This document shows, piece by piece, positions 2,552-52,268 of a stretch of DNA of 64,000 nt. Source of the stretch: an uncultured Nitrososphaerota archaeon (GTDB lineage Archaea > Thermoproteota > EX4484-205 > JAAOZP01). A model generated the notes under the pieces. The model saw only the letters and a list, made by a program, of their open reading frames with translations. It ran no database searches and was not told the DNA's origin. Position numbers and translations under genes: made by a program. Position 1 is the stretch's first letter. Each line of letters starts with the position of its first letter. The stretch lies in the NCBI GenBank assembly GCA_964416155.1, contig CAYQCW010000007.1:25217-89216 (forward strand). The letters run 5' to 3'.

Positions 2552-3283
2552 ATGAGGCCCATGAGAAGGATTCGTGTAACTGTTTGGAACGAGTTTCTGC
2601 ACGAGAAGCAGGACCCTAGGATTGCTGAGATCTACCCAGACGGGATGCATAGTGTTATAGCGAGTTTCCTCCGCAGCCAGGGTTTCGAAACCAGGACTGC
2701 GACGCTGAGCGAGCCTGAGCACGGTCTAACCGAGGATGTTTCGAATAATACTGATGTTTTAATCTGGTGGGGCCACATGGCTCACAACAGGGTTGACGAC
2801 GGTGTTGTTGAAAGGGTTTACCGGAGGATTGTTAACGAGGGCATGGGGCTCATCGCCCTGCATTCAGCGCATCTCTCCAAGGTTTTTAGGCGTCTAATGG
2901 GTACCCCGTGCAACGTTAAATGGAGGGAGGCTGGGGAGCGGGAGAGGATATGGGTTGTCGGGGGAGGCCACCCTATTGCCGAGGGCCTGGGCGACTATTT
3001 CGAGGTTGAGCATGAGGAGATGTATGGTGAGCCGTTTGAAATTCCTCAGCCGGATGAGCTTGTCTTCATAAGCTGGTTTAAGGGCGGCGAGGTTTTCAGG
3101 AGTGGCTGCTGCTTCCACAGGGGCCTTGGCAAGATATTCTACTTCAGGCCTGGCCACGAGACCTATCCGACTTACTACGATTCTAATGTTCTCAGGGTTA
3201 TTGGGAACGCTGTGAAATGGTGCGCCCCAGTTGAAAGGCCTAGGCCTGTTCACGGCAACGTTAAGCCGCTGGAACCTCTTTAA
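2552..3283 (+). CDS. ThuA-like (trehalose-utilisation family) class-I glutamine amidotransferase-like protein
   Basis: 243 aa. Conserved ThuA-family blocks ([36 protein letters not shown]) read from the translation. Confidence 0.55.
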
Positions 3284-3306
3284 CAGGCTTCCGTATTCCG
3301 CGAGAG

Positions 3307-3639
3307 TTAAGGGTGTTTCTCCAAGTATTGCAGGAGACTAGCCTGCCCCGCGGGGCTACGTGAAAGCTTCGCCGCCAGAGTGTAGAATCTTCTCGCCAGA
3401 GAGATTCTCGTAGCCCTGTGTTGATCCCCGTCTAGGCCAAGCTCTTCCTGTAGGAAGGAGTGTAGAAGCTGCTGGACCGCGACGCCTTCGCTCCTCCTGG
3501 TTTCAACGTATTTCAGGAAGGCTTTGAAAAGCGTTTTCGAGCATTCCCTCATCCTCCTGACGTTCTCCTCCGCCTGGAGCCTGAGCTCCCCGTAGGTTTC
3601 AGCGACGCGTCTAACGTCTTCATGCAGATTCCCACTCAA
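3307..3639 (-). CDS. Hypothetical helical protein
   Basis: 110-aa ORF, no recognisable motif. Confidence 0.3.
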   Translation of the reverse strand: MSGNLHEDVRRVAETYGELRLQAEENVRRMRECSKTLFKAFLKYVETRRSEGVAVQQLLHSFLQEELGLDGDQHRATRISLARRFYTLAAKLSRSPAGQASLLQYLEKHP

Positions 3640-7231: not shown

Positions 7232-8302
7232 CTATATCACCATCGTGCTTCTGGCAAGCTCCTCCGCAGCCTTCCTCGTCAAACCCTTATCTCCAAGTAT
7301 AGTGTATCTTTCAGGCCTTATGGTGTGGGCGAGGATCAGGGCTTTAACAACCTGTTTCTCAGAAACGTTTATCACCCTAGCTGAAACGGGTGCGCCGACT
7401 TTCGAAAGCGCGCTCCTTATTCTCAACCAGTCGCCGTCGTGAAGCTTGCTCATCATTATTGTCCCTATTCCAACCTGCTCCCCGTGGAGAGCAGGATAGC
7501 CTGCAACATGGTCGAGCGCGTGGCTGAAAAGATGCTCGGAGCCGCTGCACGGCCTGCTGCTTCCAGCTATGCCTATGAGCACCCCGGCGTGTATCAACGC
7601 TTCCACGAGTATGCTGGCCCCCTCAAGCCTGTCCCCCGCGATGGTTTCAGCACACTTAACTATTCTCTCCGCGATTGTTTCAGCTAGGCTCGCTGCATAC
7701 TCGCCGTAGTATTCTCCGCGAAGCGTGTGGGAGAGACGCCAGTCTTTCACAGCCGTATGCTTCGCCACCAGGTCTCCAACCCCGGCGCCGAAATACCTCG
7801 AGGGAGCTGTTGCGAGAATCGAAACATCCCCTATTATTACTGAGGGCGTTATCGTGTTGAACGAGTATCTTCTTCCCCGCCTGGGCGCTGAGGCCAGGGG
7901 GCTTGCAATCCCGTCGTGAGAAGGCACCGTGGGGACGCTTATGAACTCCAGGCTGTTCCTCCAGGCTAGAATCTTGCCCGCGTCAATAACCCTGCCTCCT
8001 CCGAAGCCGACGACAACGCTTTCACCCGGCTTCCTGTCAATCTTGGCGAGATGCTTCTCAAGCTTCAAGGACTCTGTGAAAGCATCCGCCTCGCCTATGA
8101 GGCTGAGCCTGAAGGAGAGCCTGCTCTCCAAGAGGATTCTCCTAATCTTCTCCCCGAAGAGCCTCATAGGCGTCTTGCTGGTTAAAACAACGACCCTTTT
8201 AGCCCCCAGCTCCCTTATGCTTGAGCCCAGCTCCTCAACAGCATCCCTTCCGAGTATTATGTGTCTCGGCAGCCTAACTGTATGCCTACTCTTGTCTTTC
8301 AA
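7232..8302 (-). CDS. egsA: Glycerol-1-phosphate dehydrogenase [NAD(P)+]
   Basis: 356 aa. GFGGGRVIDAGK Rossmann motif and PTVPSHDGIASP metal-binding region typical of archaeal G1PDH. Confidence 0.9.
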   Translation of the reverse strand: MKDKSRHTVRLPRHIILGRDAVEELGSSIRELGAKRVVVLTSKTPMRLFGEKIRRILLESRLSFRLSLIGEADAFTESLKLEKHLAKIDRKPGESVVVGFGGGRVIDAGKILAWRNSLEFISVPTVPSHDGIASPLASAPRRGRRYSFNTITPSVIIGDVSILATAPSRYFGAGVGDLVAKHTAVKDWRLSHTLRGEYYGEYAASLAETIAERIVKCAETIAGDRLEGASILVEALIHAGVLIGIAGSSRPCSGSEHLFSHALDHVAGYPALHGEQVGIGTIMMSKLHDGDWLRIRSALSKVGAPVSARVINVSEKQVVKALILAHTIRPERYTILGDKGLTRKAAEELARSTMVI

Positions 8303-27097: not shown

Positions 27098-27523
27098 GTG
27101 CAAACCCTGATTTGGTTAGGAGGCTCGGTGAAAAACAGCCGGGCGCAATCTATGACGAGGCTAGGATTCCACGGGTTCTCTGCCAGACCCGCTTGTTTCC
27201 TCAGACGGGTTGAGGAAGATGACGAGGTTGATGAGAAACGCGTTGTCATCGTTGGCCATTCGAGGCTTGGAAAGACAGCCCTGTGGAGGAGGAGAATTCG
27301 TGGAGAATTCTTGGCAACGAAGGCCGCGGACCCGGTTTACAGGCTGCTGGGTACGGATGGGCTGCCGGTGGAGGAGATGCCTCCTTTAAACCATCATGTA
27401 ATGGGGACAATGGGTCATCATGTTCGCTCGGGTGGACACGCTTTAACCCTATACGATTGGGAGAGGTACATGGATTTCGCGGATAAAGCGAAAAACGGAA
27501 CCCCTTCCTGTTTACATCGCTAA
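27098..27523 (+). pseudogene. Fragment of an alpha/beta-hydrolase-like gene in AT-rich region
   Basis: 141-aa ORF with VVIVGHSRLGKTAL and HHVMGTMGHH blocks but no complete fold; surrounded by AT-rich noncoding DNA. Confidence 0.3.
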
Positions 27524-27781
27524 CACGAACGCGCTAACGCGTTATCCGTAGACATAGTCCAACAAGCTCTCGAGATGGGAAAATGCAGGATAGTGGAAAT
27601 GCCGGTCAAATTAGTTTCCATTACTACTAAAATTCTAGTCGTGAAAAACATACCTCTACGAATTACTTATCTTTTATTTAACCTAGTGCACGTAAACCGG
27701 AAACCCTGAGCCCTAGTCGGCAATTCCCTGCAAGTAAAAAGTTATTAAATCCCTGCAAGCAGGTTTTCAACAAGCCCGGGA

Positions 27782-27912
27782 AGCCCGGTGGAGCCAACTA
27801 GGGTGCCGATTGTAATGGCAAAGCATCGCGCTAAGACATGGGGGGCTTTGGTGCAATTTCGCGCTTGCGGAGAAACCCCTTGATGAGAGTTCGAATCTCT
27901 CCCGGGCTACCA
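27782..27912 (+). tRNA. tRNA-Gln (anticodon UUG) with two introns (D-region ~30 nt and canonical ~23 nt); CCA encoded
   Basis: Acceptor AGCCCGG/CCGGGCU with A73-CCA. Anticodon arm GGGGG CTTTGG[intron]A CCCCT. T-arm GAGAGTTCGAATCTCTC. 131 nt total, so ~53 nt are intronic. Exact D-arm intron boundaries not resolved by eye. Confidence 0.7.
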
Positions 27913-28086
27913 TTGTACCCTAGTCAGGTCTACGTTCAAACTCTCGGTTTCTCATGTTCATAATTGTATTACTTGGCGAACTCGCTGATAATTGACCATA
28001 TCTGTGCACATAAGCAATTTGCTCTTTCGTACTCTCCGATAAGTTTTTAAGAGTGTCAGCCTCTGAATGCTTACATAGGAATCCGC

Positions 28087-28539
28087 ATGACTTTAAGCAT
28101 GGGTTATCTCACTTCTAAGCAGAAGCTGATCTGGGATCTGAAACGTAAGGGTTTCTCTGAGGCAAGTATCGCCAGAAAGCTAGATGTGGCACGTCAAACA
28201 ATTCACAAAGCCGTAAGCGTTTGTAAATCTAAAGTCTACATAGCACTTAAAGAGGCGGCCAAGCTCAATAAAATCGATGTTGAGACCATAGATCCGGCAA
28301 AGGGAATTTTGATAGTTACAGTCCAGAGTTCAAAACTAAGGCGCTTGTCACCTTTTCAGCCACCAATGGAATTCAGGTCTGGTATAGGCATGAGGGAGAT
28401 TGCAAAAATTGTGAACAGCTTCAAGTCTGCAGAGAAATGTTGCTGGTTGAGGCAAAAGACCGGAATATTCAACTTCCAGAAAATGCAGATTCGATGTTGC
28501 CATCAAAACTGGCTAAAACTTTGTTCTCAAAGATCGTAG
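28087..28539 (+). CDS. HTH DNA-binding protein (element-associated)
   Basis: LTSKQKLIWDLKRKGFSEASIARKLDVARQTIHKAV helix-turn-helix. Confidence 0.4.
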   Translation: MTLSMGYLTSKQKLIWDLKRKGFSEASIARKLDVARQTIHKAVSVCKSKVYIALKEAAKLNKIDVETIDPAKGILIVTVQSSKLRRLSPFQPPMEFRSGIGMREIAKIVNSFKSAEKCCWLRQKTGIFNFQKMQIRCCHQNWLKLCSQRS

Positions 28540-28543
28540 GTGA

Positions 28544-29158
28544 GTGAAAATGGGCATTCGCAAAAAATTGTTGGATTGGTGTCGAAAACCGAGAGAACGT
28601 GTTTCAGAATCAGCTATACCGCTGTTGTTACCTAACTTTGCTATGAGTTCTCGTTTCTTTTTGTATGTAGGATTTGGATTGATTTTTCTGGCGTTGGTTT
28701 ATTTACCCGTTAAGGTGTGGATTATTGTTCAGCCTGAGACCCCCGAAGTGGAGTTATGGCACTTAGGTCCAATTTATGCACTACTAGTGGGGGTTTGGAG
28801 CCTTCCCTGCTTGCTTTTAGGAATTATAGAATCTTCCATATCTAAGAAAGTTGCTTCGTTGCGTCTTGCTCCAATTCTATGTCTTGCCAATATCTTTTTG
28901 ATATTGACAATAGTGAACCAGATCAGATTCTGGCGTGGCATGGAGCTTCAGATGCTGCTTAACTACAGTCCATTTCTTGCTCCGTGTGCAATCGTTAATA
29001 TGATAGGGCTTCTCTATTTCGCAAATAGTGGAAAACTTGCAAAGGCTTTGAAAAATCCAATAATAAGAGTGCTTTTAATAATTATGTTTGCGGCAATCCC
29101 CTTCAGCATTACATGGGAAATATTATATTCTTGGCATCGCTGGGGTTTTCCTCATTAG
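28544..29158 (+). CDS. Polytopic membrane protein (element-associated)
   Basis: 204 aa, ~6 TM segments. Confidence 0.4.
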   Translation: MKMGIRKKLLDWCRKPRERVSESAIPLLLPNFAMSSRFFLYVGFGLIFLALVYLPVKVWIIVQPETPEVELWHLGPIYALLVGVWSLPCLLLGIIESSISKKVASLRLAPILCLANIFLILTIVNQIRFWRGMELQMLLNYSPFLAPCAIVNMIGLLYFANSGKLAKALKNPIIRVLLIIMFAAIPFSITWEILYSWHRWGFPH

Positions 29159-29572
29159 CGGACTTATACTGGCGCGTGGAGCGTTTTCGTCAGTTTTTCT
29201 AGGTTTGTAATTGACTCCAGAAATGATTTTGGACTGCAGCAGCATGCCACACATACCTACTAGCTTTGTGAGTTTCACAAGTCTGTGTTCTAGACCTTAA
29301 AATCTTCCTTTACGCTCATTCAGAGAGCATTTTCCAGAAAGGACATAGGATTGTGTCGTAACCCCGATAATTTAAACCGATACGTGAACCTATCCCGGGC
29401 TACTAGAATGGTTTAAAGCGTTATTTTCAATGCTGCTCATTGTTAAGCCATATACGTGTGTGTCTGAAGACTCGGTTAGTGGAAACACGTGTTAAGAAAC
29501 CCCGATAAACATTGAAAACGGGCAAATACTCCCCGCGTGTGCTAAATGCTCGATTAGAATTGTAATTAGCGT

Positions 29573-31321
29573 TTATGGAATTAATTTTCCTAAAGCAGAG
29601 TGTACGTCGCCCGCAGCCGTTTCCCTTCTCTTCCTGTTCTCCTTCAAGTATTTTCCAGCAAGGTTTTCGAAAACGCTTCTCGTAATACGTCCTCCTCTAA
29701 ACCTTTCGATAGTGTTGTTAATCATGTTTTTAGAGTCGCCGTTTATTTCCTCGAAGACCCTGTAGCGTCTCTCAACCTCCTCGCCTACCCTGCTGTTTAT
29801 TCGGGAGACCTCCTCGATTGTTTTCAAAATCTTCTTCTCAGCTTTCGATGTTCTCCGCTCGTATTCTCCAACCCTCTCCCTATACTCTTTGGAAGAAATC
29901 CTTCCAACAGCGTTTTTAACCTTAACTTCCTCCAAGAGAGTTTCGCAATCAACTTTTTCCCGGAGAGCCTCAACCAAATCGTTCACAAGCCTCTCAACCT
30001 CTTTCCCTCTCTTGGCTTCAACAGGCTTCGCCGCCTCCTCCCTGAAGATCTCAGCCACCATCAGTACGAGCAGCGTCAATAGGCCTAGGAGCATTGAGAT
30101 GCTTTTACCAGCCTCTAGCTGTGCCGAGGAGAAACTTACTTGAAACTGCTGAGCCAGCATGTCCGGCATAGCGTTGCGCATCGTGAGAGAGAACACTCCA
30201 CCGTTTTCAATGCGTGCAAGGGTTGATTCCGCCTCTATCTTCCAGCTTTTCGCACCCTCCACTTTCACGCTTAAAAAGTATGTTTCAACGATATCCGTAT
30301 AGTTGGGCAAGCCTGTTAGTCGAATAGTGGTTAAACCCCCGCTCGAGCTCACAAGCATGTTTTTAACAGGAACGCTGTATTCAACTATTGCTTCATACTC
30401 CTGGCCTGGTCTCAAGGAGTATCTCGAATAAACCGTTATAACACTCGTATTAGCCGCTGTCGATGCGCTAGTGGAGGTTTGAAGCGCCCCCAGCGCATCC
30501 TTCACCCTAACTGATCGATTAATATTGATAGGCACGTTTATCTTCAGTATTTCGCTCCTGTAGGAGATCCCCACGTATTTCAGCCTCAACACGTCTTTCA
30601 CATTGACCTGGAGCTGCTCCGTCACAGTTATCTCCCTAGCTAGGCTTTTTATCACACACCTGTCGAACGGTTTAGAGAAAACTACTCTACCAGTCACATT
30701 GCCCACAGTCTCCGTCCTGAAATACTGGTTCCATAATCCTATTACAGTGTCGTTCAGGAAAATAGGGTTAAAGTACTGCAGATAGTATCCTTTAATCGCG
30801 CCCGTGGTTAGGAAGGTGAAGTTAACGTATTCAGGCATTATGCTAAAGCCTGTTAAAACCGGTAGCTTAAACCCCACGTAGTCTTCAGCAATATCGCCGC
30901 GTTGAATCAAGCCGAACCTGACTGTAGCGTTCAGCCGTTCAACCTGAAAAGGAGGAAGCTCCGCAACCAAGTAATCATAATCCTCAGCCTCCTCGAGCCT
31001 CAGAGCTATTTTCTCCCCGTTCTCAAGGAATAGTTTAGGCATGTCTGTGGAGAAAACAAGGTTTGGAGCCGCCCATTTCGGAAGCTGTATCTTAAAAGTC
31101 CAGTTGGCCTCGCCTAATGCTCTCATCGTCTTCGGCCCCATCGTCAGGTTCACGTTGAAAACGGCAATCGCCTCCTCATTCATGTTAGCCTTCACATAAA
31201 CATAGAGGTCTGACAGCTCGAAGAACTGGCCTGAAGTCTTTATGCTTAGGAGAAGGCTGGAAACCAGTATTAGAACCAGTATGGGGACGAGCTTACACCC
31301 GGTTTTTCTACGCGGCTGCAT
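29573..31321 (-). CDS. Type-I membrane protein: signal peptide, ~400-aa extracellular domain, one TM, ~170-aa charged coiled-coil cytoplasmic tail
   Basis: Signal peptide LVPILVLILVSSLLLS, TM LLGLLTLLVLMV, tail rich in E/K/R heptads. Confidence 0.5.
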   Translation of the reverse strand: MQPRRKTGCKLVPILVLILVSSLLLSIKTSGQFFELSDLYVYVKANMNEEAIAVFNVNLTMGPKTMRALGEANWTFKIQLPKWAAPNLVFSTDMPKLFLENGEKIALRLEEAEDYDYLVAELPPFQVERLNATVRFGLIQRGDIAEDYVGFKLPVLTGFSIMPEYVNFTFLTTGAIKGYYLQYFNPIFLNDTVIGLWNQYFRTETVGNVTGRVVFSKPFDRCVIKSLAREITVTEQLQVNVKDVLRLKYVGISYRSEILKINVPININRSVRVKDALGALQTSTSASTAANTSVITVYSRYSLRPGQEYEAIVEYSVPVKNMLVSSSGGLTTIRLTGLPNYTDIVETYFLSVKVEGAKSWKIEAESTLARIENGGVFSLTMRNAMPDMLAQQFQVSFSSAQLEAGKSISMLLGLLTLLVLMVAEIFREEAAKPVEAKRGKEVERLVNDLVEALREKVDCETLLEEVKVKNAVGRISSKEYRERVGEYERRTSKAEKKILKTIEEVSRINSRVGEEVERRYRVFEEINGDSKNMINNTIERFRGGRITRSVFENLAGKYLKENRKRRETAAGDVHSALGKLIP

Positions 31322-31383
31322 CGCTAGCCGTATTTACACGCGGGTTAAAAATCTTTATTTTAAAGCCCAGCTGAGCTTAAACG

Positions 31384-32097
31384 ATGCTTCAAAACTACGT
31401 GTCGAAGAAGGCTATTATTCGCAAGACAGTCAGGTTTGAAGGGAACAATCTGGTTCTAGGTGGGAGCGAGATAGGGGAGGGAACCTACATCGGGTTCAAC
31501 ACGATAATAGGGTATCCTTCTAAGAGGAGTTTTTCAAGCCTAAGAGCCATGCCGGAAGACCTCGACGTTCTCGACGAATTGTCAAGCGGCACGAAAATAG
31601 GCTCCACGTGCCTAATAAGGTCGGGAAGCGTGGTCTACGAGAATGTTGTCATTGACAGGAGCCTCGTAACCGGCCACAATATTCTGATCAGGGAGGGGAG
31701 CAGGATCGGGGAGAACTGTTTGATAGGCACAGGCTCCATGCTCGACGGAAGCGTTTCAATAGGCAACAACGTTAGAATACAGTCAGGCGTGTATCTTCCA
31801 CACGGCACCGTTATTGGCGAAAACGTTTTCATAGGGCCCTACGCGTGCGTCACTAATGATCGCTACCCGGTTTCAGGCAGGCTGACCCCTGTTGTGATAG
31901 GCAACGGCTGCGTGATAGGGGCTAACTCAACGCTCATATCCGGGGTACGCGTTGGTGATAATTCTGTGGTTGCAGCGGGCTCCGTAGTCACTAGGGATGT
32001 TCCTCCAAACACGGTTGTCCTAGGCGTACCGGCAAGAATATATATCACTAGGGAAGAATACGAGGCGAGGAGGAAGAAGCATGAGCAAGGAGTCTGA
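31384..32097 (+). CDS. Left-handed beta-helix (hexapeptide-repeat) acyltransferase
   Basis: Repeated [LIV]G-x-x-x-x hexapeptides throughout (IGENCLIGTGSMLDGSVSIGNNVRI...). Confidence 0.7.
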   Translation: MLQNYVSKKAIIRKTVRFEGNNLVLGGSEIGEGTYIGFNTIIGYPSKRSFSSLRAMPEDLDVLDELSSGTKIGSTCLIRSGSVVYENVVIDRSLVTGHNILIREGSRIGENCLIGTGSMLDGSVSIGNNVRIQSGVYLPHGTVIGENVFIGPYACVTNDRYPVSGRLTPVVIGNGCVIGANSTLISGVRVGDNSVVAAGSVVTRDVPPNTVVLGVPARIYITREEYEARRKKHEQGV

Positions 32098-37079: not shown

Positions 37080-37206
37080 AAAATAATAAGCTTCTCAGAT
37101 AAGATGTATTCTTTCTTATTTCGACTCTTGGTAAAATGGATACTTATTCATTCGACTTAAAGATCGAGAAGAGTAACTGCCACGCATGTCAGAATTTGAA
37201 CATAAG

Positions 37207-37309
37207 CGCCGGCGGGAAGACTCGAACTTCCGACCAACGGGTTAACAGCCTCAGCCTCTTTCCGAGCCCGCTGCTGTGGGCCTTAAACTACCTGCTGAGC
37301 TACGCCGGC
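37207..37309 (-). tRNA. tRNA-Pro (anticodon CGG, tentative) with two introns (12-nt at 22/23 and 18-nt canonical)
   Basis: Acceptor GCCGGCG/CGCCGGC. D-arm GCTCAGCAGGTAG[TTTAAGGCCCAC]AGC. Anticodon arm GCGGG CTCGGA[18 nt]A CCCGT. T-arm GGAAGTTCGAGTCTTCC. 103 nt. A37 rather than G37 makes the identity less certain. Confidence 0.55.
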
Positions 37310-38737: not shown

Positions 38738-39108
38738 GGGGGCTAGGCCCGATGGAAACGTATTTATGATGCCTCTCACAATCTTTTCCTGGGCGGCAGG
38801 TAGGCTCGGGGAGCTCGCCATTCCCTGAACCCGAAACTGGCGACACGCGGGGAGCCGATAACCGTGGGGACAGGGCTGCCTCAACGCAACCGGCTGCAAC
38901 AGGTCTGTGAAAGCCATCCTTACTGGGCAGGAGTAGCAGGCTCGCCTGCCGTAGGGTGGGCGCGTCTGCCTAATTACCGAATCCGCTAGGCCCGGGAGGG
39001 AGCAACGGTCTGGTAAGCTACCTGCGTTGGTAAGGGATGGCTGGAGGGTAAACCTGTTGCGTGTGGGTTGTGATGGAGGGGCTCGACCCTCATGGGGCTG
39101 CCGCCTCT
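38738..39108 (+). ncRNA. Signal recognition particle RNA (7S/SRP RNA)
   Basis: GC-rich ~370-nt noncoding stretch with the helix-8 (domain IV) signature AGGCCCGGGAGGGAGCAACGG, comparable to conserved AGGUCCGGAAGGAAGCAGCC, and Alu-domain-like GGCGGCAGGTAGGCTCGGGG. A T-rich tract follows. End coordinates approximate. Confidence 0.65.
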
Positions 39109-47940: not shown

Positions 47941-48072
47941 TGGGGCCAGGGCGATTTGAACGCCCATTCACGGGTTTCCTCCCAGCTCCAACCTTTCCTC
48001 ATCTCCCTCGCCGGGATCCTTGGCTTGCATGCGGCTGGAGCCCGCCGTCCTGCCTGGTTAGACTATGGCCCC
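47941..48072 (-). tRNA. tRNA-Trp (anticodon CCA) with 59-nt canonical intron
   Basis: Acceptor GGGGCCA/TGGCCCC. Anticodon arm GCGGG CTCCAG[59 nt]A CCCGT. T-arm GGGCGTTCAAATCGCCC. 132 nt. Confidence 0.8.
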
Positions 48073-51534: not shown

Positions 51535-51634
51535 GGGCCAGTGGCCCAGCCTGGTTAAGGCGCCCGGCTGATAATAGATGAATATAAATCTATTTGAAAC
51601 CGGGAGATCGCCGGTTCGAATCCGGCCTGGCCCA
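51535..51634 (+). tRNA. tRNA-Ile (anticodon GAU) with 25-nt canonical intron
   Basis: Acceptor GGGCCAG/CTGGCCC. Anticodon arm CCCGG CTGATA[25 nt]A CCGGG. T-arm GCCGGTTCGAATCCGGC. Confidence 0.8.
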
Positions 51635-52268
51635 CTTTTAGTGAATGTGTAAACGCGTATCTCATTCTTTTCCGCGCCATGGTGTTCGCAATCTTCAATA
51701 ATGAGATTAGAAGGCGATTATGCTTAAAGCTGTGCTTCACGAGTATTAGTAGGATGGTGAACCCTAAGCTTAGGAAGAGGCTTGTGGATTCGATAGAGTA
51801 TCTTCGTAAAATGGGTTTCTTCCAAAACTACTCCGACTTGTCCTCCGAGGAGATTCTTAAGAAGATTTGAACGGCGAGATAGAATATTCTATGCTGTCGG
51901 TTGATGAGAAGGATGAGAGGAGTTTTTAAAAAAGGCGGAGGAGGAGAGAGAAAGGGGAAACTTGGGGCCAGCGTCTAAAAAAGTGGATTGAAAAGGATGA
52001 GGATCAGTGGATGAAGAAGAGCGATTTCGGAGTAGATTTAGAGCTGAGCTTTTTCGATAGGAGGAGGATTTTCGCTGAAGATGTAGAGACTATGATTTAT
52101 GAAGGCATGGTGGTCGTGTTGTTGAAGAAACTAGCTAGGATTTCAAGAGGCGTTTTCCAGCCGACGAATATGAGGGAGAAGAAGTGGGTCCAATGGCATG
52201 GGAAGGCTCCTCAAGACGATGGAATACATTTCAAAATTCCTTAACTATGATTATAGGACTAGGATCGG

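What the first reader, a model, noticed from the sequence alone, without database searches (positions are those of the whole stretch)
27893..29403. ~1.5-kb integrated-element remnant at tRNA-Gln with 16/18-bp att-like direct repeat
The last 18 nt of tRNA-Gln (gaatctcTCCCGGGCTAC, 27893-27910) recur 1.5 kb downstream (gaacctaTCCCGGGCTAC, 29386-29403). The bracketed interval is AT-rich, lacks housekeeping genes, and encodes only an HTH protein and a six-TM membrane protein, followed by ~400 bp of noncoding DNA. This is the signature of tyrosine-recombinase-mediated integration into a tRNA 3' end, followed by deletion of most of the element including the integrase. The surviving HTH + membrane-protein pair might be a retained selfish or exclusion module.
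Basis: seen in the sequence. Interest (0 to 1): 0.55.

Follow-up and report, generated by a model that had tools for sequence, protein, structure and literature searches.

The report
Integrase-less islet at archaeal tRNA-Gln
A 1.5-kb stretch next to a glutamine tRNA gene of a Bathyarchaeia archaeon is most likely the scar of an old site-specific integration that now holds only a broken regulator gene and its membrane partner; this is a known kind of genomic leftover, but the same gene pair sits inside tRNA-flanked islets in several other genomes.

Summary
The last 20 nt of a real tRNA-Gln(UUG) gene (27782-27912, three introns, missed by ARAGORN and Rfam) recur at 29386-29405 (17/20; 16/18 as reported). 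No dinucleotide shuffle of the next 2 or 5 kb reaches this, and it is the only such site in 64 kb.

The interval is the most AT-poor-in-GC 1.5 kb of the window and contains no integrase. It carries:
- a Tfx/EnfR-like zinc-motif HTH regulator gene, inactivated by a 1-nt deletion that is identical in four independent assemblies;
- its cognate membrane partner, a 'WCxxP' tail fused to a 5-TM domain.

This gene pair is a conserved cellular Bathyarchaeia module (more than 130 homologues). I found it in no virus or plasmid collection, so the 'exclusion module' idea is unsupported.

For an integration scar:
- In five other loci, at three further tRNA genes, the same pair is bracketed by 15-35-nt copies of a tRNA 3' end.
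- Orthologous tRNA-Gln loci hold different cargo or none.
- An IMG/VR tailed virus with a tyrosine integrase carries this same tRNA-Gln 3' end as a 31-nt partial copy.

Against a simple story:
- The 40-nt tRNA trailer is conserved whatever the cargo.
- The att-like copy is orthologous in a sister lineage that carries different cargo.

Verdict: a decayed, integrase-less (CIME-like) tRNA-linked islet.

The parts
27782..27912 (+). tRNA-Gln(UUG) gene with three introns and an encoded CCA
   Evidence: Not called by ARAGORN or Rfam. The alignment with orthologues L050, L051 and L054 and with the intron-less tRNA-Gln of L028 defines the exons. The spliced 76-nt sequence is called tRNA-Gln(ttg) by ARAGORN.
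27792..27810 (+). Intron 1 (19 nt, in the D-arm after position 10), shared by all four orthologues
27827..27839 (+). Intron 2 (13 nt, near position 25/26; boundaries ambiguous by about 3 nt). Absent in L050 and L051, longer in L054.
27852..27874 (+). Intron 3 (23 nt, canonical 37/38 position). Absent in L051 and L054, different in L050.
27893..27912 (+). attL-like core: the last 20 nt of the tRNA (T-loop 3' half, T-stem, acceptor strand, discriminator, CCA)
27913..27950 (+). 3' trailer, about 35-40 nt, conserved in window, L050, L051-53 and L054 whatever lies downstream. The variable segment starts after it.
   Evidence: It shows no similarity to the flank of the att-like copy.
28087..28547 (+). 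Tfx/EnfR-like HTH regulator pseudogene with an HxxxCxxC...C motif. A 1-nt deletion between 28314 and 28315 shifts the frame.
   Evidence: The three-frame translations give a composite that matches more than 130 proteins of 153-155 aa at 56-80% identity and full length. The deletion is identical in 4 independent assemblies and absent in sister contig L062. Fold evidence. Weak family hits.
28550..29158 (+). Membrane partner: N-terminal cytoplasmic 'WCRKP' tail (33 aa) fused to a 5-TM domain. The ORF can also start at GTG 28544.
   Evidence: P0121 is 100% identical. Family members of the 5-TM domain start at Met34. Every HTH homologue is followed by a gene with the [WY]C[PRK]xP tail. The same fusion is intact in L062. 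In L059 the partner and the 5-TM protein are separate genes.
29304..29498 (.). Noncoding block conserved (71%) with L051-53, where it lies just upstream of a Yip1-family gene. It contains the att-like copy.
29386..29405 (+). attR-like degenerate copy of the tRNA 3' end (17/20). The orthologous copy in L051-53 is 13/20 to the tRNA and 16/20 to this one.

Best explanation
The interval is a decayed, integrase-less islet linked to tRNA-Gln. In bacterial terms it resembles a CIME, an element that keeps attL and attR but has lost its recombination genes.

Proposed history:
1. A tyrosine-recombinase element recombined its attP with the 3' end of tRNA-Gln(UUG). This rebuilt the tRNA (attL, 27893-27912) and left a second copy of the tRNA end downstream (attR, now 17/20, 29386-29405).
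2. This happened before the window lineage and the L051-53 lineage split.
3. The recombinase and any backbone genes are gone.
4. The slot between the att copies has since turned over. In this lineage it holds a two-gene cellular signalling cassette: a Tfx/EnfR-type HTH regulator with a zinc-type HxxxCxxC...C motif, and a membrane protein whose conserved cytoplasmic WCxxP tail is its likely docking piece.
5. The cassette is itself decaying. The regulator is a fixed frameshift pseudogene, so the module is probably non-functional here.

Shown:
- The repeat and its significance.
- The tRNA.
- The pseudogene.
- The absence of an integrase in the cassette, in four ORFs tested nearby (27098-32097) and in ten more within about 11 kb upstream and 9 kb downstream.
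- Variable occupancy of the locus in relatives.
- Recurrence of the same cassette inside tRNA-end-bracketed islets elsewhere.
- The existence of an integrase-bearing virus that carries this tRNA end.

Inferred:
- That recombination made the repeat.
- The order of events.
- That cargo changed by accretion and deletion at the att sites.
- The regulator-partner interaction.
For: 1. The repeat anchored on the tRNA end is significant, and the tRNA is genuine.

2. The same HTH plus WC-partner pair is bracketed by copies of a tRNA 3' end in five more loci:
- L028: tRNA-Gln CUG, 15 nt exact including CCA, 1.69 kb.
- L011: tRNA-Arg, 18 nt exact, 1.45 kb.
- L030, L042 and L045: another multi-intron tRNA, 27/28 to about 30/35 nt covering T-arm to CCA, 4.6-5.5 kb, with an added ABC transporter.

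3. Control: 6 of 9 tRNAs that have the cassette within 2 kb of their 3' end carry a copy of at least 15/18 beyond it. None of about 12 other genuine tRNAs in the same sequences does.

4. In L028, homology with the 85%-identical cassette of L033 starts at the nucleotide next to the att copy.

5. The sister cassette L062 (84% nt identity, HTH intact) abuts a different tRNA-like 3' end.

6. The orthologous tRNA-Gln to 582-aa-gene interval differs between relatives: about 200 nt in L050; a 173-aa gene, the block, Yip1 and a PNP pseudogene in L051-53; an MGMT-like gene and a Yip1 pseudogene in L054.

7. The interval GC of 0.414 is in the lowest 1.1% of 1.5-kb windows.

8. IMG/VR UViG_3300032070_000415 is a tailed virus. 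It has a PF00589 integrase directly after a full tRNA-Gln(UUG) with the identical T-arm and acceptor, plus a 31-nt partial copy 280 nt upstream.

9. Decay is visible: the 1-nt deletion is identical in 4 assemblies.

10. The CIME definition is taken from PMC5704250.
Against: - No integrase was found in any of the six islets or among the ORFs tested beside them. The recombination step is therefore never directly evidenced.
- The 35-40-nt trailer after the CCA is conserved in all four lineages, including cargo-less L050, and is unrelated to the attR flank. A simple attB x attP event predicts the opposite for an empty site.
- By flank identity, and by the presence of Yip1 in L051 and in the outgroup L054, L050 is probably a secondary deletion and not a true empty site.
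- Cassette homology with L062 stops at ~29230, about 155 nt before the att-like copy.
- The att copy is only 17/20.
- Most homologous cassettes (about 45 of 58 loci examined) show no tRNA or flanking repeat and sit among housekeeping genes.
- The window and L028 have the cassette in opposite orientation relative to the same kind of tRNA.
Confidence: 0.55

Rival explanations
1. The scar is real but unrelated to the present cargo. An old provirus or plasmid integrated at tRNA-Gln and was lost. The HTH/partner cassette is an ordinary chromosomal regulatory module that later landed in this recombination-prone slot, or was always near it, by illegitimate or homologous recombination rather than through the att sites.
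For: - The cassette family is cellular, widespread and mostly in housekeeping contexts and absent from virus and plasmid collections.
- The trailer is conserved irrespective of cargo, and the cargo boundaries lie inside the att copies.
- The att-like copy is orthologous in L051-53, which carry different cargo.
Against: - It does not explain why the same cassette is bracketed by tRNA-end copies at three other tRNAs.
- It does not explain the 6 of 9 versus 0 of about 12 contrast.
- It does not explain the nucleotide-exact coincidence of the cassette edge with the att copy in L028.
Confidence: 0.27
2. The HTH/partner cassettes are themselves small non-autonomous mobile cassettes. Each carries an attP-like tRNA-end sequence in its single intergenic region and is inserted and excised at tRNA 3' ends by integrases supplied in trans. 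The window copy is a recently disabled member.
For: - Three independent 1.45-1.7-kb two-gene islets have tight gaps of about 150-230 nt (414 nt on one side of L028) to both att copies.
- Cassettes of 80-89% nt identity have unrelated flanks in different genomes.
- Close relatives of the window cassette lie at different tRNA-like ends.
- The family is multi-copy in several genomes.
Against: - No circular form, no empty site with a junction at the core, and no integrase partner has been identified.
- Most copies lack detectable att flanks.
- A given attP cannot serve several different tRNAs without being exchanged.
- The window's att copy is shared with a lineage that carries other cargo.
Confidence: 0.12
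3. The repeat is a chance match, or a functional tRNA-like 3' motif (terminator or processing signal) of an ordinary variable intergenic region. No integration was ever involved.
For: - The match has only an 11-nt exact core.
- Many unanchored repeats of similar size occur in 4 kb.
- The core contains the palindrome CCCGGG.
- No integrase is present.
Against: - The anchored shuffle tests give 0 of 2000, and there are 2 sites in 64 kb against 0.02 expected.
- The recurrence at other tRNAs with much longer repeats argues against chance.
- The copy lies in either orientation relative to the operon: sense after the last gene in L030, L042 and L045, antisense upstream of the HTH gene in L011 and L028. 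This argues against a cis-acting RNA role.
Confidence: 0.06

Closest known systems
CIMEs (cis-mobilizable elements) of Streptococcus and other decayed tRNA-linked genomic islands (definition in PMC5704250)
   Same: The islet is flanked by attL and attR derived from the 3' end of a tRNA gene. It has no integrase or transfer genes. The locus shows cargo turnover between close relatives, as expected from accretion and deletion at att sites.
   Different: The host is archaeal (Bathyarchaeia). The att copy is degenerate (17/20). The islet is only about 1.5 kb. No accretion partner or mobilisation has been observed. The conserved trailer does not fit a simple attL.
Archaeal integrative elements at tRNA genes (SSV-type and pNOB8-type integrases of Sulfolobales; my own knowledge) and Bathyarchaeia proviruses with tyrosine integrases (PMC10848311; IMG/VR UViG_3300032070_000415)
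   Same: The target is the 3' part of a tRNA gene, and a direct repeat of the tRNA end results. The IMG/VR virus carries the identical tRNA-Gln T-arm, acceptor and CCA as a 31-nt partial copy next to a PF00589 integrase.
   Different: There is no integrase and no split int fragments, no viral or plasmid genes, and the cargo family is absent from virus and plasmid collections. The integrase of the IMG/VR virus has no homologue in the window or in any fetched locus.
Tfx family / EnfR (TON_1525, PDB 8HNO) 'eighth note' fold regulators (PMC10570040)
   Same: Both have an N-terminal sigma-70-region-4/LuxR-like HTH, a long third helix, then a C-terminal alpha+beta domain, at about 150 aa. The best Foldseek hits are 8HNO and 8HNP over 139-143 columns. 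There are weak hits to TIGR00721 Tfx and to PDB 1NR3 and 8HNO. The EnfR authors suggest that a separate partner (anti-repressor) may control it.
   Different: Sequence scores fall far below family cut-offs (20 vs 60.25 bits), TM-scores are only 0.37-0.40, and identity is 14%. This family has invariant C102, C105 and C111 plus H98, which the fetched passages on EnfR do not mention ('zinc' occurs 0 times in that paper's text). It is always paired with a WCxxP-tailed membrane protein.
Zinc-binding anti-sigma (ZAS) / ECF sigma pairs and other membrane-tethered regulator pairs (my own knowledge; a functional analogy only)
   Same: Both are two-gene units: a small sigma4-like DNA-binding protein plus a membrane protein with a short conserved cytoplasmic tail, one or more TM segments and a variable outer domain. 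Both show an HxxxCxxC motif.
   Different: Here the Cys/His motif is on the DNA-binding protein and not on the membrane partner. Archaea have no sigma factors. No interaction was tested.

Membership tests
tRNA-targeted integrated element (tyrosine-recombinase type) | Direct repeat of the 3' part of the tRNA gene flanking the inserted DNA | tested here: met
   17/20 (16/18). 0 of 2000 shuffles reach it, and there are 2 sites in 64 kb against 0.02 expected.
tRNA-targeted integrated element (tyrosine-recombinase type) | Integrase gene (whole or split) inside or adjacent to the element | tested here: not met
   Pfam and NCBIfam on both cassette ORFs, on four ORFs between 27098 and 32097 and on ten further ORFs out to about 11 kb upstream and 9 kb downstream gave none. 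tblastn with the IMG/VR integrase gave no hit. Gaps of 174 nt and 227 nt leave no room for int fragments.
tRNA-targeted integrated element (tyrosine-recombinase type) | Empty site in relatives, with the junction at the att core | tested here: inconclusive
   L050 lacks the segment (about 200 nt between the tRNA and the 582-aa gene). However, it keeps the attL-side trailer and has also lost the ancestral Yip1 gene, so it looks like a deletion.
tRNA-targeted integrated element (tyrosine-recombinase type) | Variable occupancy and atypical composition | tested here: met
   Four different contents at the orthologous locus. GC 0.414 against 0.481, lowest 1.1%.
CIME-like decayed element | Retains attL and attR but lacks recombination and transfer genes | tested here: met
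   As in the rows above. attR is degenerate.
CIME-like decayed element | Mobilisable in cis by accretion with an incoming element that uses the same att site | not testable with these tools
   Indirect evidence only: different cargo between the same att-like sites in the window and L051-53, and a virus with an integrase that carries this tRNA end.
Archaeal virus or plasmid gene module (SSV, pNOB8, tailed viruses) | Homologues of the cargo genes on virus or plasmid genomes | tested here: not met
   No relative in IMG/VR, PLSDB or INPHARED. L005 has portal- and terminase-like genes nearby, but this was not followed further.
Tfx / EnfR transcription factor family | Sequence match at the family threshold | tested here: not met
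   TIGR00721: E 4.8e-4, 20 bits against a cut-off of 60.25, N-terminal 34 residues only. PDB 8HNO E 0.03 and 1NR3 E 0.42.
Tfx / EnfR transcription factor family | 'Eighth note' architecture: two short helices, long stem helix, C-terminal alpha+beta head | tested here: inconclusive
   AF2 model of the homologue P0002: pLDDT 89, H6-16, H21-28, H32-56, four strands, two helices. Top Foldseek hits 8HNO/8HNP have probability 0.97-0.99, but E is 0.03 and TM 0.35-0.40.
Regulator/membrane-partner signalling pair (ZAS-like analogy) | Obligate adjacency of regulator and partner, with a conserved cytoplasmic tail | tested here: met
   In 41 loci the next gene overlaps or abuts the HTH gene and begins with a basic stretch and [WY]C[PRK]xP before the first TM.
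Regulator/membrane-partner signalling pair (ZAS-like analogy) | Physical, zinc-dependent interaction between the two proteins | not tested
   Inferred only, from three invariant Cys plus His on the regulator and one invariant Cys on the tail.

The most novel reading that the evidence does not exclude
The Tfx-like regulator plus WCxxP membrane-partner pairs of Bathyarchaeia are a family of miniature (1.2-5.5 kb) non-autonomous integrative cassettes. They move between the 3' ends of different tRNA genes using tyrosine integrases supplied in trans by co-resident viruses or elements. This would be an archaeal counterpart of CIMEs or cassette systems, carrying transmembrane signalling modules as cargo. 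The window copy would be one such cassette caught after inactivation.
Probability: 0.2. Interest if true: 0.6.

Novelty: new member of a known kind. Interest (0 to 1): 0.38.

Why it matters
On its own this is an ordinary feature. Degenerate, integrase-less islets next to tRNA genes are common in archaeal and bacterial genomes, and this one carries a dead regulator gene.

Three things make it somewhat useful:
- It documents tRNA-targeted integration scars and a gene-turnover hotspot in Bathyarchaeia, an uncultured and abundant sediment lineage whose mobile elements are barely known.
- It exposes an uncharacterised and very consistent two-gene module: a Tfx/EnfR-like HTH with an HxxxCxxC...C motif plus a membrane protein with an invariant WCxxP tail. 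The module looks like an archaeal membrane-tethered regulator system. It would fit the EnfR authors' suggestion that Tfx-type regulators, which lack an effector domain, may be controlled by a separate partner protein.
- The repeated bracketing of this module by tRNA-end copies, without any integrase, hints at trans-mobilised cassettes in archaea. Existing metagenome reads could test this.

It is also a practical reminder that multi-intron tRNAs are missed by standard tRNA finders, which hides att sites.

Tried and rejected
- ARAGORN and Rfam on the tRNA failed because of three introns. Alignment and manual splicing resolved it.
- Pfam and NCBIfam on the two ORFs gave only weak HTH hits. A profile search of PDB sequences was also weak.
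- Searches for the HTH family in IMG/VR, plasmids and phages found nothing.
- The integrase hunt found none. It covered Pfam on 16 window ORFs, the island proteins and 10 ORFs flanking other islets, and tblastn with the IMG/VR integrase against all loci.
- I first read L050 as an 'empty site'. I downgraded this after seeing the conserved trailer and the phylogenetic distribution of Yip1.
- I tested whether the att duplication extends into the trailer, which would indicate a long att or a segmental duplication. It is not significant.
- I considered that the 204-aa protein is a deletion fusion and so a sign of decay. I rejected this as evidence because the same in-frame fusion is conserved in L062.
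- The inverted repeat between intron 1 and the trailer (I13) is not conserved in L050 or L051 and was dropped.
- A tRNA-like terminator or processing role for the copy was rejected because its orientation relative to the operon is inconsistent.
- The viral contigs that carry the other tRNA end (L066, L067) show RtcB or unknown genes and no integrase, so they are uninformative.
The homologue P0002 was used as first row instead.
Full report
**1. The observation**

The window is from a Bathyarchaeia archaeon. All protein homologues carry that label, and an identical membrane protein (P0121) occurs in an NCBI MAG and in two Logan assemblies.

The reported repeat is real. 27893-27910 and 29386-29403 match at 16/18. 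The match extends to 17/20 through the encoded CCA.

Taken without context it would not stand out, because one search lists many similar repeats in 4 kb. Anchored on the tRNA 3' end it is significant:
- No dinucleotide-preserving shuffle of the next 2 or 5 kb (2000 each) reaches 16/18 or 17/20, and 1 of 1000 does for 10 kb.
- The two sites are the only matches within 3 mismatches in 64 kb, against 0.02 expected.

**2. The tRNA**

ARAGORN and Rfam do not call a tRNA here; Rfam gives 16 bits at relaxed threshold. I aligned the region with the orthologous loci L050, L051 and L054 and with the intron-less tRNA-Gln(CUG) of L028. This shows a tRNA-Gln(UUG) at 27782-27912 interrupted by three introns:
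- 27792-27810;
- about 27827-27839;
- about 27852-27874.

Intron 1 is shared by all four orthologues. Introns 2 and 3 come and go between them. The spliced 76-nt sequence is a canonical tRNA-Gln(ttg) for ARAGORN.

**3. The two genes**

*The HTH gene.* The annotated 150-aa HTH ORF changes frame. The N-terminal 76 residues continue in the -1 frame to a stop at 28547. The corrected 149-aa protein matches more than 130 clusters of 153-155-aa Bathyarchaeia proteins at 56-80% identity over their full length. A profile search finds 293 representative clusters.

The frameshift is a 1-nt deletion between 28314 and 28315. It is identical in the window, two Logan assemblies from different projects and an NCBI metagenome assembly. 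It is absent from the closest relative, L062 (84% nt). So it is a real pseudogene fixed in this population.

The family has:
- a sigma-70-region-4/LuxR-like HTH;
- an AF2 model (pLDDT 89, built on the homologue P0002) with two short helices, a long helix, a four-stranded sheet and two helices;
- as best structural neighbours the Tfx-family regulator EnfR (8HNO/8HNP, probability 0.97-0.99, but E 0.03, TM 0.35-0.40; PMC10570040).

Invariant C102, C105 and C111 and near-invariant H98 form an HxxxCxxC...C motif.

*The membrane partner.* In every locus examined, the next gene overlaps or abuts the HTH gene and encodes a membrane protein. Its first ~20 residues are basic and contain [WY]C[PRK]xP, followed by a TM segment and a highly variable remainder of 165-870 aa.

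In the window this partner is the WC tail fused to a 5-TM domain. That domain also exists as a free-standing protein family (P0122-P0134 start at Met34). In L059 the 461-aa partner and the 5-TM protein are separate genes. The fusion is conserved in frame in L062, so it is an architecture and not damage.

I infer a membrane-tethered regulator pair, possibly bridged by zinc. This is not tested.

**4. Is the pair mobile-element-like?**

Not by content. There are no relatives in IMG/VR, PLSDB or INPHARED. Many copies sit among metabolic genes with stable synteny across samples.

Other features are unusual for a housekeeping gene:
- The family is multi-copy in several genomes.
- Cassettes of 80-89% nt identity have unrelated flanks in different genomes.

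**5. Recurrence of tRNA-end bracketing**

In five further loci the cassette lies between a tRNA gene and a downstream copy of that tRNA's 3' end:

| Locus | tRNA | Copy | Islet |
|---|---|---|---|
| L028 | tRNA-Gln CUG, same T-arm and acceptor as the window | 15 nt exact including CCA | 1.69 kb |
| L011 | tRNA-Arg | 18 nt exact | 1.45 kb |
| L030, L042, L045 | another multi-intron tRNA | 27/28 to ~30/35 nt, whole T-arm to CCA | 4.6-5.5 kb, cassette plus ABC ATPase, ABC-2 permease and a large membrane-anchored protein |

As a control, I scanned all T-arm/acceptor-defined tRNAs in the window and loci. Six of nine that have the cassette within 2 kb of their 3' end carry a copy of at least 15/18 beyond it. 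None of about twelve other genuine tRNAs exceeds 14/18.

Further points:
- In L028, homology to the 85%-identical cassette of L033 begins at the nucleotide next to the att copy.
- L062, the sister of the window cassette, ends 167 nt after the 5-TM gene in the 3' part of a different tRNA on the opposite strand.
- L075 abuts a tRNA-Leu-like 3' part.
- None of the islets, and none of the ORFs tested beside them, encodes an integrase. Nor do the cassette ORFs, four neighbouring ORFs (27098-32097) or ten further ORFs out to about 11 kb upstream and 9 kb downstream of the window locus.

**6. The orthologous locus in relatives**

A metagenome scan with the flanking 582-aa protein gave five loci. The content between tRNA-Gln and that gene is:

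| Locus | Flank nt identity to window | Content |
|---|---|---|
| window | - | cassette, plus a 170-nt block containing the att-like copy |
| L051-53 | 87% | 173-aa gene of unknown family, the same block (71% identity; the copy reads GAACTTGCCCCCGGCTACTA), a Yip1-family gene and a PNP pseudogene |
| L050 | 83.5% | about 200 nt, no gene |
| L054 | 73% | MGMT-like gene and a Yip1 pseudogene |

So the slot is a turnover hotspot.

Two details complicate the simple story:
- The 35-40 nt after the CCA are conserved in all four lineages and do not resemble the flank of the att-like copy. L050 therefore does not look like attB.
- Since Yip1 is present in L051 and in the outgroup L054, L050 is better read as a deletion.

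The att-like copy predates the split of the window and L051 lineages and now flanks different cargo in each. Cassette homology with L062 stops at ~29230, before the block.

A model that accommodates all this is an old integration followed by cargo replacement through accretion and deletion at the att sites, as described for CIMEs (PMC5704250). That is inference.

**7. Do integrases use this site?**

An exact search of IMG/VR for the tRNA-Gln 3' end found contig UViG_3300032070_000415. It encodes terminase, Mu gp36-like and beta-helix tail proteins. It also has a PF00589 tyrosine integrase directly downstream of a complete tRNA-Gln(UUG) with the identical T-arm, acceptor and CCA, and a 31-nt partial copy of that end lies 280 nt upstream.

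Integrase-encoding Bathyarchaeia viruses are also described in PMC10848311. So this sequence is a plausible att core, although the contig's own arrangement is not fully understood.

**8. Verdict**

The finding is a genuine att-like duplication at a genuine, triple-intron tRNA-Gln. The best reading is a decayed, integrase-less islet.

It is a new member of a known kind. The interesting residue is the recurrent, integrase-free bracketing of this particular signalling cassette by tRNA ends in Bathyarchaeia. That could mean trans-mobilised mini-cassettes (probability about 0.2) and can be tested with existing read data.

Noticed in passing
window 27885-27887 (starts of L001 and L002): Two independent Logan assemblies (SRR7473445, ERR1612259) that are identical to the window both end their contigs at the first bases of the tRNA-Gln T-arm. 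This suggests a graph branch (strain or intron variation, or an alternative junction) exactly there.
   Followed up: partly
window 37130-37260 (- strand; T-arm at 37231): A T-arm plus acceptor signature (GGAAGTTCGAGTCTTCC CGCCGGC G) with a matching 5' acceptor strand about 100 nt upstream. It is not reported by ARAGORN or by Rfam at gathering threshold, so it may be another multi-intron tRNA. ARAGORN with introns allowed also calls a tRNA-Trp at 47941-48072 and a tRNA-Ile at 51535-51635.
   Followed up: no
L063 7238-7268 and L065 ~50-124 (contiguous halves of IMGVR_UViG_3300032070_000415): This tailed-virus contig carries a complete tRNA-Gln(UUG) immediately upstream of its tyrosine integrase, plus a 31-nt partial copy of the tRNA end only 280 nt upstream of the full gene. 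That geometry is unusual for attP or for a provirus border.
   Followed up: partly
L013 1667, 3491, 4389, 5878, 8122, 10210 (and a 45-nt repeat at 1686 / 10229): A palindromic motif, AGTCAAGAAAGTTTGACT, recurs at least six times around an HTH/partner locus that also holds several beta-helix-type partner paralogues. It could be an operator of the regulator.
   Followed up: no
L005 1809-2978, 9178-10164, and repeats 3258-3330 / 7896-7970: In one 1.9-Mb contig the cassette lies between Portal_Mu- and Terminase_6C-like genes and a PIN/MazE pair, and is flanked by a degenerate direct repeat of about 70 nt spaced 4.6 kb apart. This could be a provirus-like context for the cassette.
   Followed up: no
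L059 2190-2310: This HTH homologue has ACG where the family's ATG start codon is expected, and the gene caller truncated it to 120 aa. It may be another decaying copy or may use a non-canonical start.
   Followed up: no
window 29573-31321 (-) and L011 2566-4311: The 582-aa membrane-anchored protein flanking the islet has a weak Ribophorin_I match. A 581-aa Ribophorin_I-like protein also lies about 1.5 kb from the att copy of the L011 islet. This may be coincidence.
   Followed up: no
window 29360-29370 and 29498-29508: An exact 11-nt direct repeat, AACCCCGATAA, brackets the att-like copy at a spacing of 138 nt (D20). Its significance is unknown.
   Followed up: no
window 38793-39104: Archaeal SRP RNA (Rfam RF01857, 133 bits). 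The window's other tRNAs mostly carry introns. The neighbours are housekeeping genes: TiaS, Top6A, Pelota and glycosyltransferases.
   Followed up: no
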